A stretch of DNA of 64,000 nt from a virus (Duplodnaviria > Heunggongvirae > Uroviricota > Caudoviricetes), in the IMG/VR virus record IMGVR_UViG_2939142107_000001, positions 26,843-90,842 of that record. One strand, written 5' to 3'. Both the position numbers and the translations under genes were made by a program. This document shows positions 57,190-60,100 of the stretch, piece by piece (within the stretch, counting starts at the first letter, position 1; every line of letters begins with the position of its first letter). The notes below the pieces were generated by a model, which was not told the DNA's origin, did not search any database, and worked only from the letters and a program-made list of their open reading frames with translations.

Positions 57190-60100
57190 ATAGCTATAAC
57201 GTCATGAGCAACACCACGAGTGTCCCCCTTACAAGACACAGAACGTCTGGCAAAAAGAGGTTCCACTCTGAAGCCACTGTCCTGATAAAGCTCTCTGATG
57301 TTTGGCGCGCCACTGTTAGTAATGAGAACCTTTGCACCTCGGCGATGGGCATCCGTCAACAGAGACACCAGGCGTTTTTGCTCTTCAAACTTAAAGTCAT
57401 GACCGGAATAGTTCGTGAACCCCTCTGTATTGGGGAGCGGTTCATACGGCGGATCGCAAAAGATGACATCTCCTTCTCCGGCACCTTCAATCACCGCTGC
57501 AAAATCACCGCATACAAACTCAGACCGCCCTTCCGCACCGAGGAAGGCTTCCATTTCCTGTAATGGGAAATACGGAGTTTTATACTTCCCATAACCGACA
57601 TTGAACTCACCGGCCTGGTTGTAGCGCGTCAATCCATTAAAACAATGTCGGTTCAGGAACAAAAACGCCGCTGCGCGATGTAAATCATCATAGACTTGTT
57701 TGTTAAACGCATTCCGTACTGCCAGGAATCCCTCCTGGGTGTTGTAGTCCAAGAAGAAACGATGTGCCAGAGTGATAAGTGAATGCGCCTCGCGTTGCAG
57801 AGTCTTGTAAAAGTTAATCAGGTCAGCATTCACATCATTTAGCAGATTTTCCTGGTATCCGGCATTCATGAAGACAGCTCCACCACCGACGAAAGGTTCA
57901 ATCAGGCGCTTCCCTTCTGGCAAATAGCGAAAGATTTGTTCCAGAACACCAAATTTTCCACCAGCCCATTTGAATATGGACCGTTCGAATTCTGCCGCTG
58001 GTTTAACTTTTCGCTCTTTTGTTTCACGCCCTTCATTCTGCCGACATGCAGCCTTGGTTATCCGCTCGCCAATCCAGCGCATTACTGGTATCGCCATACT
58101 ATTGCCGATCGCTTTGTAACGCGGTCCGTCAGCTGCAAGCATTGCGGCCTCTTCTTCGCTTAAATCTGGATAGTGATTGTGCAGATATGCCAGTTCATCT
58201 GAATTAACTTTTTTACGCTTTTCCGTAGGGATCAACGTATGCCCATCAGGAAAACCTTGAAGTCTCTCACATTCGACAGGGGTAAGACGGCGTATTCTAC
58301 CGTCGCCGAGCAATACAATTGGTGCTTCATGGTTACATGTTAAAGTTGGTGCCGAATTATCGGTTTTTATCTCAGCCCCTCCTTGCCCATGTGCCATGGC
58401 AACTATGTTTGTATCATCGCAAGATCTGATAGCGATGTTTGAAGTATATCTGGTAGTTTCCTTCCCCTCGCCTCTGCTCGGCGCAATATTCCGGCGCACG
58501 CCTTCGAACTCAAAAAGTACCGTTGCGGGATCGAGGTCTGTTCGAGCACTTGCGACAACAAACACGCGTCGGCGTCGTTGTGCCACTCCGAAGTATTGGG
58601 CATCAAGGATTCTCCAGGCCACCTTTCGCTGCGGTCCATAAATACAACCACACTGTGGCCACTTTGGAGCATGGCAACCGGTTTTGCCATCCCACCGCCA
58701 GAACGCGTTACTTTTTCCTGATTCAGGTCGATCACCTGGTTCAAATGGCGCATCTTCTCCAGCCAATCCGGCAAGGAAACATCCGAAGGCGTTATCTGCC
58801 GATGACAAGACTCCTGGGACATTTTCCCAGACGATAACGGCTGGTTTGAGAAATGACTCAGCCCGTTTGTCGTCAATTGCATTTGCAAGCTCCACATACT
58901 TTAAAGTTAGCGCGCCACGCTCATCATCAAGCCCACCACGTAATCCCGCGATACTGAATGCCTGACAGTTATGGACCACCGCACCATTGAGGATATAGGA
59001 ATGATCACCTTCGACTTCTATGTTGTATACAGTATCTAGGCCTACCGATTTAAACTCTTTGACTGTTCGTAAAAGCATTCCATGAGCCAATCTTGATTTA
59101 CGTGACAATTTCTGCGGGCAGATTGTTACCTGATAATAATTCCGTTGATTTACCACGCGATCCTCGATCACTTTTTTGGGCTCAACTTCAATAAAGCTGA
59201 CCGAAGAAACATAACCACAAGTCTGTGACAACCCCGCAACGCCCCAAGCAAGCGCAGGACTAACACTATTAATTCTAAATCCCGCTTTACCACTTGGTGT
59301 CCCATCAGTATCAAGATAGCCTTGTAAAAACACATGACGCAATGGATGCGACATCACCCATGCAGGGATACGCTTAGCATGGCTTAACTCGCCAAAATGT
59401 TCATTAAGCCAATTGGCATAACACGTATCATTCAAGGTTACTTTGATGCTCCCTCGGATTTCGCTTGCCACGGAAAATATGTTTTCTGGTATGCGGCAAT
59501 GAAACTTTCTCAATTTCTGGCAATTTATGCCAAAAACAACCGCCTTCTTAGATTTACCTCTCCATCTCCTAATATATCCATCGCCAACATAAGCGCCCGC
59601 AAGATACATAGCCTGTTCTTCAGACAAGAACCGAGAACAAATATCTGGAGATGCAATATTGAAATTAGTTAGAGCGCACCATTGATACCCCGGCATATCA
59701 CATGCTGCTCGCCATTCCGGTTCAGACAACAACTCTCTCTTAAAATATGTGCCATTTTTCCGGGTGTTTTGGGCTTTCCACCGAACAGCCAGGAAGGGAT
59801 GGTCATTGGTTGTTCTTATATCTAAAGGCTGCCCAACGGCATTAAGTAACCCCGTATTAGCTATTTTTGAACCAACTCTTTTTACTTGTTGTAACCGCCC
59901 GAGATGACTGACTACGTAATCGCCAGGGCAAACATCTTCTATTGGTTTATAGCCATTTTTACAAAGAACCATATGCCCCGCGGTAAAACATGGTGTTCCC
60001 CCGACGAGCACGTCAGGGGATTCGATTTCCCCAGCCAAGACTTTTTTGGCAAGTTTTGTCATGTCGCCAAGGTTGGCGACATGGGGCCAGCGGAGCGCAA

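What the first reader, a model, noticed from the sequence alone, without database searches (positions are those of the whole stretch)
58968..59990. Intein with LAGLIDADG motifs inserted at the catalytic PCQ motif of the C5-methyltransferase domain of Dmt
Seen: within the 1013-aa Dcm+Dam fusion ORF, motif IV is split as GGTP | CFTAGHMVL...(341 aa)...GAVVHN | CQAFSIAG. The insert begins with Cys and block-A/B-like segments ([22 protein letters not shown]), contains [11 protein letters not shown] and LQGYLDTDG, and ends with the block-F/G-like [21 protein letters not shown] followed by Cys. Excision would recreate a canonical [12 protein letters not shown] motif. Inference: methyltransferase activity depends on protein splicing, and the intein may home into intein-less dmt alleles. 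I do not recall an intein in P1 dmt.
Basis: partly seen in the sequence, partly recalled or inferred. Interest (0 to 1): 0.8.

Follow-up and report, generated by a model that had tools for sequence, protein, structure and literature searches.

The report
Homing intein splitting P1-like Dmt methyltransferase
The DNA methyltransferase gene of this P1-like phage-plasmid is interrupted, exactly at its catalytic cysteine, by a self-splicing protein element that carries its own DNA-cutting enzyme. The element is real, is found in about a quarter of P1-like elements, and belongs to an already known kind.

Summary
Window 58968..59990 (- strand) encodes a 341-aa in-frame insert in the 1013-aa Dmt ORF (57180..60221), between GGTP and CQAFSIAG of C5-methyltransferase motif IV.

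All sequence-level features of a class 1 intein with a nested LAGLIDADG homing endonuclease are present:
- Cys1, block B TxxH, a terminal His-Asn and a +1 Cys.
- Two LAGLIDADG motifs that keep their acidic residues.
- A confident predicted fold (pLDDT 91.8) whose best solved matches are PI-SceI, the TliVMA intein and PI-PfuI.

Intein-less alleles (reference P1, P7) read [12 protein letters not shown] without a gap. About 25% of P1-like elements carry the insert: 128-133 of 490 plasmids, 26 of 103 viral contigs, and 152 of 5426 complete E. coli genomes. One carrier is a plaque-forming laboratory P1vir stock. Copies are at least 98.9% identical and none is broken. Flanking variants are linked to the insert, and the linkage decays with distance, as expected after gene conversion.

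The intein belongs to a large family specialised on the P|CQ site of C5-methyltransferases. C-5 methylase inteins are already reported in actinobacteriophages. I found no paper that mentions this one. It is a new member of a known kind. Splicing and homing are inferred, not shown.

The parts
57180..60221 (-). dmt precursor ORF: 1013 aa plus stop, GTG start overlapping the end of hrdC/rdgC. It encodes C5-methyltransferase, then intein, then Dam. Calculated mass is 112.8 kDa.
   Evidence: 98.3% identical to dmt of OP279344
59991..60221 (-). N-extein, residues 1-77. It holds C5-methyltransferase motif I ([11 protein letters not shown]) and ends with ...VLVGGTP. The last codon is CCA.
58968..59990 (-). 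Intein: 341 aa, 38.3 kDa, pI 9.3. Its GC content is 43%, against 49-55% in the exteins.
59964..59990 (-). Block A: Cys1-Phe-Thr-Ala-Gly-His-Met-Val-Leu. Cys1 is the first nucleophile. C1, F2, A4 and G5 are invariant in the 11-sequence alignment.
59799..59810 (-). Block B TxxH (Thr61-Asn-Asp-His64). Thr61 and His64 are invariant among the aligned relatives.
59115..59663 (-). Nested LAGLIDADG homing-endonuclease domain, about intein residues 110-292. The boundaries are approximate and taken from the predicted secondary structure.
   Evidence: (PI-PkoII match)
59577..59603 (-). First LAGLIDADG motif, LAGAYVGDG. Asp137 is the predicted metal-binding residue.
59301..59327 (-). Second LAGLIDADG motif, LQGYLDTDG. 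Asp229 is the predicted metal-binding residue.
58968..59030 (-). Blocks F and [22 protein letters not shown], with penultimate His340 and terminal Asn341. Position 4 of block F is Asn, where inteins usually have Asp.
   Evidence: (alignment to the Spl DnaX mini-intein)
58965..58967 (-). The +1 Cys codon (TGT). This Cys is the second splicing nucleophile and, after splicing, the catalytic Cys of motif IV (PCQ).
57183..58967 (-). C-extein. It holds the rest of the C5-methyltransferase: ENV 58809..58829, QRR 58554..58583, a variable target-recognition region at about 58293..58484, motif IX 58248..58292 and motif X 58083..58112. The Dam (D12) domain follows at 57267..57968, with DPPY at 57444..57455.
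59991..60108 (-). Upstream flank that travels with the intein. The variants at -1 (A), -22, -48, -104 and -118 are found only in intein-bearing alleles. The -1 base is window 59991.

Best explanation
This is a canonical class 1 intein with a nested LAGLIDADG homing endonuclease. It is inserted between Pro77 and the catalytic Cys of motif IV ([12 protein letters not shown]) of the C5-cytosine methyltransferase domain of the bifunctional Dmt of a P1-like phage-plasmid.

The likely mechanism is as follows, and every step is inferred. The 113-kDa precursor is translated from the C1-repressed uhr-hrdC-dmt operon. Cys1 undergoes an N-S acyl shift, helped by block B Thr61 and His64. The +1 Cys attacks the resulting thioester. 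Asn341 cyclises, helped by His340, and releases the 38-kDa intein. An S-N shift then joins Pro77 to the Cys. The product is a 74.5-kDa Dmt with an intact PCQ active site, and the cysteine used for splicing is the one that later attacks cytosine C6. C5 methylation therefore requires splicing. The C-terminal Dam domain is a separate domain and probably does not.

The freed intein is a site-specific endonuclease. It is expected to cut intein-less dmt alleles around ...GGTACGCCT|TGTCAGGCATTC... when an intein-bearing and an intein-less P1-like element share a cell. Repair from the intein-bearing copy then copies in the intein together with a short stretch of flank. This is homing.

My confidence in each step: bona fide intein by sequence and fold, about 0.95. 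It splices, about 0.85. The endonuclease is still active and drives the spread, about 0.6.
For: What the sequence and tools show directly:
- The insert is a clean in-frame 1023-bp difference from P1, P7 and other alleles, which read [12 protein letters not shown].
- Cys1, Thr61, His64, Asn323, Asn341 and the +1 Cys are conserved in an alignment with relatives 23-52% identical.
- Pfam and NCBIfam hits to Hint, intein C-terminal and LAGLIDADG models pass their curated cut-offs.
- PDB sequence hits are to the Spl DnaX mini-intein (blocks F and G) and to PI-PkoII (endonuclease core).
- The AlphaFold model has pLDDT 91.8 and pTM 0.89. Its 16 best solved matches are all endonuclease-bearing inteins: PI-SceI 5e-17, TliVMA, PI-PfuI, PhoVMA and PI-PkoII.
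- The methyltransferase profile match is restored after in-silico excision.
- No stop codon and no change at 11 key residues occurs in 30 sampled copies. All 153 places in complete E. coli genomes are full length and at least 98.9% identical.

Evidence of mobility:
- The insert is present in about 25% of alleles.
- It occurs with at least three different variable regions, giving exteins of 672, 754 and 807 aa, and with 23 flank haplotypes among 25 intein-bearing alleles.
- Intein diversity is 0.7%, against 1.6-6% in the adjacent flanks of the same alleles.
- Association of flank variants with the intein is complete at -1: CCA in 34 of 34 occupied sites and CCT in 85 of 85 empty sites. It decays with distance, with r2 of 0.64 at -22, 0.56 at -48 and -104, 0.47 at -118, and at most 0.36 downstream.
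- RCS47 differs from its nearest intein-less haplotype only at -104, -48, -22, -1 and +21.
- The intein is more AT-rich than its host gene.
- A plaque-forming laboratory P1vir carries it.
- 139 of 153 full-length relatives sit at P|C, and about 130 at N|CQ.
Against: - No experiment shows splicing, m5C methylation or DNA cleavage.
- Position 4 of block F is Asn rather than the usual Asp. This holds across the whole family, so it is probably tolerated.
- The -1 residue is Pro. From memory, Pro at -1 hinders the first step in the Sce VMA intein. It is nevertheless the rule in this family, in 139 of 153 relatives.
- The decay of association and the mosaic flanks would also arise from one ancient insertion followed by ordinary homologous recombination among P1-like elements, without any endonuclease.
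- Variable codons lean towards amino-acid changes in the endonuclease domain (13 changed, 7 silent) compared with the splicing domain (4 changed, 9 silent). Fisher p is 0.08, so this is only a hint of relaxed constraint on the nuclease.
- The viability of the P1vir stock says nothing about C5 activity, because dam+ hosts do not need Dmt (PMC12707154).
Confidence: 0.85

Rival explanations
1. The intein splices, but its endonuclease is inactive or decaying. The present distribution then reflects one old insertion carried along by descent and by ordinary homologous recombination between P1-like elements, not by ongoing homing.
For: dmt alleles are strongly mosaic everywhere, including swaps of the variable region. 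This shows plenty of general recombination. Amino-acid changes are relatively enriched in the endonuclease domain: 13 changed and 7 silent, against 4 and 9 in the splicing domain, p = 0.08. One relative (P0009) has Asn in place of the second catalytic Asp, so nuclease loss does occur in the family.
Against: Asp137, Asp229 and Lys206 are unchanged in all 30 sampled copies. No truncated or mini-intein derivative was seen among 153 E. coli genome copies. Intein diversity (0.7%) is several-fold lower than that of the flanks in the same alleles. The intermediate frequency of about 25% fits an element that is still spreading.
Confidence: 0.25
2. The insert is a dead intein that no longer splices. 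The C5 domain is permanently knocked out, and the protein serves only as a Dam methylase with a large N-terminal appendage.
For: Only the Dam activity of P1 Dmt has a documented role, in pac-site methylation and in dam- hosts (PMC12707154). The C5 activity is annotated only as 'perhaps' in the P1 and P7 records. Block F has Asn where Asp is usual, and the -1 residue is Pro.
Against: All splicing residues are intact in every copy examined. They are conserved across relatives down to 23% identity that share the same block F Asn and the same -1 Pro. All C5 motifs of the extein (I, IV, ENV, QRR, IX, X) are also intact. That would not be expected if the domain had been useless for long.
Confidence: 0.07
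3. The insert is not an intein. It could be an ordinary lineage-specific domain of Dmt, a bacterial intein-like (BIL/Hint) domain, or a self-splicing intron with an endonuclease gene.
For: None beyond the bare presence of an insertion.
Against: Intein-less alleles are otherwise more than 95% identical and read straight through. The reading frame is continuous, and no Rfam intron family matches 58700..60300 at E up to 1. A +1 Cys, a terminal His-Asn and insertion in a strictly conserved catalytic motif are the marks of inteins rather than of BIL domains. The fold matches are to true inteins.
Confidence: 0.02

Closest known systems
C-5 DNA methylase inteins of phages. They are listed as a known intein host class in actinobacteriophages (bioRxiv 10.1101/2025.01.02.630785). 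Examples checked here: Propionibacterium phage B22 gp50, Lactobacillus phage Nyseid, E. coli jumbo phage A4 and Mannheimia phage vB_MhS_587AP2.
   Same: The insertion point is the same, between Pro and the catalytic Cys of motif IV (GGSP|C...HN|CQD, GGFP|C...HN|CQA, GGTP|C...HN|CQS). The architecture is the same, Hint plus LAGLIDADG. The sequences are homologous at 27-48% identity over the full length. In the representative library, 139 of 153 full-length relatives sit at P|C.
   Different: The host protein here is the bifunctional C5+Dam Dmt of P1-like phage-plasmids of Enterobacteriaceae. Identity to the nearest relative outside P1-like elements is only about 48-57%. No paper was found that describes it.
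PI-SceI (the Saccharomyces VMA1 intein), the TliVMA/PhoVMA inteins, PI-PfuI and PI-PkoII
   Same: The predicted fold is the same: a Hint splicing domain interrupted by a two-motif LAGLIDADG endonuclease. Foldseek E-values run from 5e-17 to 1e-9 and TM-scores from 0.53 to 0.62. Cys1, His-Asn and the +1 Cys give the same class 1 chemistry.
   Different: Sequence identity is only 11-17%. This intein is smaller, 341 aa against 360-540. Those inteins have been shown by experiment to splice and cut DNA, and this one has not.
Intein-less Dmt/Dam of phage P1 (NC_005856, 754 aa) and P7 (NC_050152, 672 aa)
   Same: It is the same gene in the same uhr-hrdC-dmt operon. The exteins are 96-98% identical at the DNA level, and the motif IV sequence is the same after excision.
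   Different: They have no insert, and their last codon before the site is CCT rather than CCA. P1 has the long variable region, whereas this window and P7 have the short one. Reference P1 reads WGTPCQ instead of GGTPCQ.
Mycobacteriophage DNA methylase inteins (DNMT-1/2 of Kelley et al. 2016, PMC5050341), for example Pacc40 gp60
   Same: These are homologous inteins (about 26% identity over the full length) in a phage DNA methyltransferase.
   Different: Their host is an N4/N6 methylase and the insertion site is different (...MHV|C...KN|CPLQFD). They are therefore not the same insertion-site family.

Membership tests
Intein (class 1) | In-frame insertion in a host protein whose intein-less homologues read through without a gap | tested here: met
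   P1, P7 and 6 further plasmid alleles read [12 protein letters not shown]. The insert is exactly 1023 bp.
Intein (class 1) | Cys or Ser at intein position 1 (block A) | tested here: met
   Cys1 is invariant in the alignment and in 30 of 30 copies.
Intein (class 1) | Block B Thr-x-x-His | tested here: met
   Thr61-Asn-Asp-His64. Thr and His are invariant.
Intein (class 1) | Blocks F and G ending in His-Asn, followed by a Cys, Ser or Thr at +1 | tested here: met
   ...GAVVHN|C. TIGR01443 scores 29 bits against a cut-off of 15.6. The region aligns to the Spl DnaX mini-intein. Position 4 of block F is Asn, not the usual Asp.
Intein (class 1) | Hint (horseshoe) fold of the splicing domain | tested here: met
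   This rests on a predicted structure only: pLDDT 91.8, with the best PDB matches all inteins. Pfam Hint_2 scores 28.7 bits, just over its cut-off of 28.4.
Intein (class 1) | Protein splicing shown by experiment (precursor gives ligated exteins plus free intein) | not testable with these tools
   It needs expression followed by SDS-PAGE or mass spectrometry. The expected masses are 112.8, 74.5 and 38.3 kDa.
LAGLIDADG homing endonuclease (two-motif, monomeric) | Two LAGLIDADG helices, each ending in an acidic residue | tested here: met
   LAGAYVGD137G and LQGYLDTD229G. Pfam LAGLIDADG_3 scores 35 bits against a cut-off of 22.5. Both Asp residues are unchanged in 30 of 30 copies.
LAGLIDADG homing endonuclease (two-motif, monomeric) | The alpha-beta-beta-alpha-beta-beta-alpha core fold | tested here: met
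   The predicted model matches the endonuclease domains of PI-SceI and PI-PfuI, and the free-standing enzymes I-SceI and I-AniI.
LAGLIDADG homing endonuclease (two-motif, monomeric) | Site-specific cleavage of the intein-less allele, and homing | tested here: inconclusive
   Cleavage cannot be tested here. The population data fit gene conversion: complete linkage at -1, decay of association with distance, low intein diversity and many backgrounds. They do not exclude ordinary recombination.
Intein family at the P|CQ site of C5-methyltransferase motif IV | Homologous intein at the same insertion point in homologous host proteins | tested here: met
   Of 153 full-length relatives, 139 have P|C at the N junction and about 130 have N|CQ at the C junction. 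Phage examples were checked by translation.
C5-cytosine DNA methyltransferase (the host extein) | Conserved motifs I, IV (PCQ), VI (ENV), VIII (QRR), IX and X | tested here: met
   All are present in the spliced sequence. Pfam DNA_methylase gives 6.6e-37, and TIGR00675 scores 101.6 bits against a cut-off of 100.65. Methylation activity and target sequence were not tested.

The most novel reading that the evidence does not exclude
The intein may be more than a passenger, in either of two ways. (a) It could act as a post-translational switch. It holds the catalytic cysteine of the C5-methyltransferase hostage and is itself cysteine-rich (11 Cys, including Cys1 and Cys10). Splicing, and with it m5C modification of phage DNA, might then be timed by redox state or another condition during lytic growth, while the Dam domain works at once. 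(b) Its endonuclease could serve as a weapon between P1-like phage-plasmids sharing a cell, by cutting intein-less rivals and converting or excluding them. Nothing here tests either idea. The family's routine splicing next to a -1 proline would also interest intein chemists.
Probability: 0.12. Interest if true: 0.65.

Novelty: new member of a known kind. Interest (0 to 1): 0.4.

Why it matters
P1 is a classic model phage and a daily tool for transduction, and E. coli is usually treated as free of inteins. This apparently intact intein with a homing endonuclease sits in 152 of 5426 complete E. coli genomes, in about a quarter of P1-like phage-plasmids, and in at least one laboratory P1vir stock. 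Public records label the gene only as a 'Dam family methyltransferase'.

It offers a natural and genetically tractable system for three things. One is measuring intein homing between phage-plasmids in E. coli. Another is asking whether the long-uncertain C5 activity of Dmt is real. The third is studying splicing at a catalytic cysteine preceded by proline.

There are practical consequences too. Gene callers and people comparing P1 genomes should annotate the 1013-, 1095- and 1148-aa Dmt forms as intein-bearing precursors, not as new fusion enzymes. None of this changes what is known about how inteins work.

Tried and rejected
- Intron or endonuclease-gene reading. Rfam at E up to 1 on 58700..60300 found nothing, and the frame is open throughout. 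Rejected.
- 'Normal part of Dmt'. Rejected by the alignment with P1 and P7.
- Literature. Eight searches combined intein with P1-like, dmt, bacteriophage P1, RCS47, phage-plasmid, LAGLIDADG, Punavirus, C5-methyltransferase and related terms. One more attempt failed on term length. No paper describing this intein turned up. The hits in PMC8594841, PMC11437467 and PMC12282955 were unrelated mentions. The library lacks most subscription journals, so absence is not proof.
- Second intein. I asked whether the 3447-bp dmt of a Salmonella plasmid (L005) holds one. It does not. The extra length is a longer variable (target-recognition) region.
- Selection within the intein. There are too few variable codons (16 silent, 17 amino-acid-changing) for a firm dN/dS. 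The contrast between domains is not significant, p = 0.08.
- Diversity of the distal C-flank (+151..+560) is inflated by indels and misalignment near the variable region. I did not use it.
- A CCA-type empty site would indicate precise intein loss. One scan found a single match, and it lies in a different, non-P1 methyltransferase gene (L022). The scan for empty sites fixed the last base as T by design, so only the scan for occupied sites (CCN) was unbiased at that position.
- Genome contigs and metagenome contigs were not scanned. With one genome per species, they would say little about P1-like plasmids.
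Full report
**1. The observation**

The - strand ORF 57180..60221 encodes a 1013-aa protein. The segment CFTAGHMVL...GAVVHN is residues 78-418, which is 341 aa and window 58968..59990. It is preceded by ...VLVGGTP and followed by CQAFSIAG. These coordinates are exactly those of the finding.

Pfam on the whole ORF finds five things:
- a C-terminal D12 adenine methylase domain (residues 752-985, 5.6e-56);
- a C-5 cytosine methylase match broken into pieces;
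- Hint_2 at residues 77-127;
- LAGLIDADG_3 at residues 298-361;
- a weak Intein_splicing match ending at residue 418.

On the insert alone, LAGLIDADG_3 scores 35 bits (cut-off 22.5) and Hint_2 scores 28.7 (cut-off 28.4). NCBIfam's intein C-terminal model scores 29 bits against a cut-off of 15.6. When the 341 residues are removed in silico, the C-5 methylase match runs unbroken through the junction (residues 8-135 to profile positions 5-119). Its score rises from 107 to 128 bits.

**2. What the window is**

The region is a P1-like phage-plasmid. The last 24 kb of the window are 100% identical to several E. coli plasmids of 80-90 kb. Gene order matches P1 and P7: uhr, hrdC/rdgC, dmt, tRNA-Asn, tRNA-Thr. 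The C1 operator and Pdmt promoter region of P1 is found 93% identical at window 61392..61519. dmt is therefore the last gene of a repressor-controlled operon, as in P1.

**3. Comparison with intein-less alleles**

Reference P1 (754 aa) and P7 (672 aa) read [12 protein letters not shown] (WGTPCQ in P1) with no gap. The insert is a clean 1023-bp in-frame difference. The same insert, 99.2-99.7% identical, is present in RCS47, in vB_EcoM-Ro157c2YLVW and in OP279344. OP279344 is the genome of a laboratory P1vir stock that forms plaques (bioRxiv 10.1101/2022.09.09.507302). All these records call the gene simply Dmt or DNA methyltransferase.

**4. Is it an intein?**

- *Sequence relatives.* Relatives 23-52% identical were found in other C-5 methyltransferases. 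In an alignment with ten of them, the invariant residues include Cys1, Phe2, Ala4, Gly5, Thr61, His64, Gly138, Lys206, Gly230, Asn323 and Asn341. Nearly invariant are Asp137, Asp229 and the +1 Cys. This is the full set for class 1 splicing (block A Cys, block B TxxH, block G Asn and the +1 Cys) plus the two acidic residues of a LAGLIDADG active site. Penultimate His340 is present here and in most relatives, but it is Lys, Ala or Asn in three of the ten.
- *Solved structures by sequence.* The C-terminus aligns with blocks F and G of the Spl DnaX mini-intein, and the middle aligns with PI-PkoII.
- *Predicted fold.* An AlphaFold model built on the alignment is confident (pLDDT 91.8, pTM 0.89). 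Its 16 best matches among solved structures are all endonuclease-bearing inteins: PI-SceI 5e-17, TliVMA, PI-PfuI, PhoVMA and PI-PkoII. Free-standing LAGLIDADG enzymes and mini-inteins follow.
- *Not an intron.* No Rfam family matches the region.

One departure from the textbook pattern is Asn instead of Asp at position 4 of block F. The whole family shares it.

**5. How common is it, and is it intact?**

| Collection | Intein-bearing | Total or comparison |
|---|---|---|
| PLSDB plasmids, intein DNA query | 133 (118 E. coli, 14 Salmonella, 1 Shigella) | n/a |
| PLSDB plasmids, 200-bp empty-site query | about 128 split | 490 matched, 362 continuous |
| IMG/VR viral contigs, exact-pattern scans | 26 occupied | 77 empty P1-type sites |
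| Complete E. coli genomes | 152 (148 places on plasmids, 5 on chromosomes) | 5426 genomes |

About a quarter of P1-like elements therefore carry the intein. In the E. coli genomes, all 153 places are full length and at least 98.9% identical. In 30 sampled copies (17 distinct DNA sequences) there is no stop codon and no change at 11 key residues.

**6. Signs of movement**

I compared 25 intein-bearing and 77 intein-less alleles.

- The base just before the insertion site is A (Pro codon CCA) in every occupied allele: 26 of 26 in an unbiased scan, plus 8 of 8 fetched records. It is T (CCT) in every empty P1-type allele.
- The only CCA-type empty site found lies in a different, non-P1 methyltransferase gene (L022).
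- Association of flank variants with the intein falls with distance. r2 is 1.0 at -1, 0.64 at -22, 0.56 at -48 and -104, 0.47 at -118, and at most 0.36 downstream.
- Several of these upstream variants occur in no intein-less allele.
- RCS47 differs from its nearest intein-less haplotype only at -104, -48, -22, -1 and +21. A Salmonella allele (L005) is identical to an intein-less haplotype throughout +1..+560.
- The intein is found with three different variable regions, giving exteins of 672, 754 and 807 aa. It is found with 23 flank haplotypes among 25 alleles.
- Its own diversity is only 0.7%, against 1.6-6% for the adjacent flanks in the same alleles.
- It is more AT-rich (43% GC) than the exteins (49-55%).

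This is what homing with short co-conversion tracts would leave behind. A single insertion followed by ordinary recombination could give a similar picture, so active homing remains an inference. There are two sub-lineages of the intein. They differ at a handful of sites, and each has its own set of silent changes in the 21 nt upstream. I cannot explain this in detail.

**7. Mechanism**

The most likely reading is standard class 1 splicing, described step by step under the best explanation. The notable point is that the +1 nucleophile is the very cysteine that later attacks cytosine C6 in motif IV. The C5 domain therefore cannot work before splicing.

The Dam domain starts more than 330 residues downstream of the intein and is an independent domain.

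The documented biological role of Dmt is Dam methylation, needed for packaging in dam- hosts (PMC12707154). The C5 activity is annotated only as 'perhaps' in the P1 and P7 records. All C5 motifs are nevertheless intact in this allele.

**8. Comparison with what is known**

Inteins in C-5 DNA methylases are already listed among the host proteins of actinobacteriophage inteins (bioRxiv 10.1101/2025.01.02.630785). Methylase inteins of mycobacteriophages were described in 2016 (PMC5050341).

A tblastn of the phage collection found homologous inteins in methyltransferase genes of several phages:
- Mannheimia phage 587AP2 (48% identity);
- Propionibacterium phage B22 (30%);
- Lactobacillus phage Nyseid (28%);
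- E. coli jumbo phages such as A4 (27%);
- many mycobacteriophages (26%).

Translation of the junctions shows that the first four sit at the identical P|CQ site. The mycobacteriophage Pacc40 intein sits elsewhere, in an N4/N6 methylase.

An exhaustive profile search found 181 cluster representatives at E up to 1e-30 and 1625 at E up to 1e-10. Of 153 full-length matches, 139 have Pro|Cys at the N junction and about 130 have Asn|Cys-Gln at the C junction. The P1-like intein is thus one branch of a large family specialised on this site.

**9. Verdict**

The finding is real and correctly interpreted. It is a new member of a known kind. I found no paper mentioning an intein in dmt of P1 or any P1-like element, and public annotations ignore it. 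The kind of element, its host protein class and even its exact insertion site are nevertheless established.

Its interest is moderate. It places a seemingly active intein with a homing endonuclease in a classic E. coli model phage, at intermediate population frequency, and that makes homing and splicing directly testable.

Noticed in passing
window 58293..58484 (-); L003, L004, L005, L014: The region between motifs VIII and IX of the C5 domain, the presumed target-recognition domain, comes in at least four unrelated versions among P1-like dmt alleles. They give exteins of 672, about 718, 754 and 807 aa. The intein occurs with at least three of them. Different P1-like elements may therefore methylate different cytosine targets.
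   Followed up: partly
L003 (NC_005856, reference P1), dmt codon 74: Reference P1 reads VWGTPCQ (TGG), where all 15 other fetched alleles and all 103 IMG/VR alleles have Gly at this codon (VGGTPCQ). A Trp two residues before the catalytic loop could impair the C5 activity of the reference strain.
   Followed up: no
L001 (OP279344.1) 3001-6042: A laboratory 'P1vir' stock sequenced in 2022 carries the intein-bearing, short-variable-region dmt. Other 'phage P1' records (MH445380, MH445381, NC_005856) lack the intein. Stocks called P1 or P1vir therefore differ at this locus.
   Followed up: partly
L017 (Mannheimia phage vB_MhS_587AP2) 1264-3584: The homologous intein-bearing C5-methyltransferase is annotated as two genes ('hypothetical protein' plus 'cytosine-specific DNA methyltransferase'). 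The frame breaks right after the +1 Cys-Gln. An HNH homing endonuclease gene follows immediately. This may be a decayed or mis-sequenced locus.
   Followed up: no
window 59991..60011 (-) and the same positions in L006-L009: The two intein sub-lineages differ by four silent changes in the 21 nt just upstream of the intein (GTGCTCGTCGGGGGAACACCA against GTGCTGGTGGGAGGGACACCA), while their inteins differ by less than 1%. Neither upstream version was seen in any intein-less allele. The origin of these private flanks is unexplained.
   Followed up: partly
L012 (CP042641.1) and L010 (NZ_CP080229.1): Some P1-like plasmids have a broken dmt. One has a frameshift after about 290 codons. Another is cut short at its 5' end by an IS91-family element. 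The gene is therefore dispensable in at least some hosts.
   Followed up: no
window 58169..58224 (-): The sequence annotated in P7 as a predicted internal late promoter (LPdam2) is conserved here, 50 of 56 bases. It lies inside the C5 part, upstream of the Dam domain. If it is real, it could drive expression of the Dam half independently of the intein.
   Followed up: no
window 54833..54908, 56354..56429, 56432..56507 (-): Three tRNA genes (Met-CAT, which is probably the Ile2-type gene as annotated in P1, then Thr-TGT and Asn-GTT) lie downstream of dmt, as in P1 and P7.
   Followed up: no
L022 (IMGVR_UViG_3300020050_010114) 2176-2700: A non-P1 C5-methyltransferase gene from a metagenomic viral contig has an empty motif IV site. 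Its DNA (GGGACACCA|TGTCAGGCATTCAGTAT) matches the flanks of the intein-bearing P1-like alleles, including the A at -1. It could be the kind of gene from which the intein and its flank came.
   Followed up: partly
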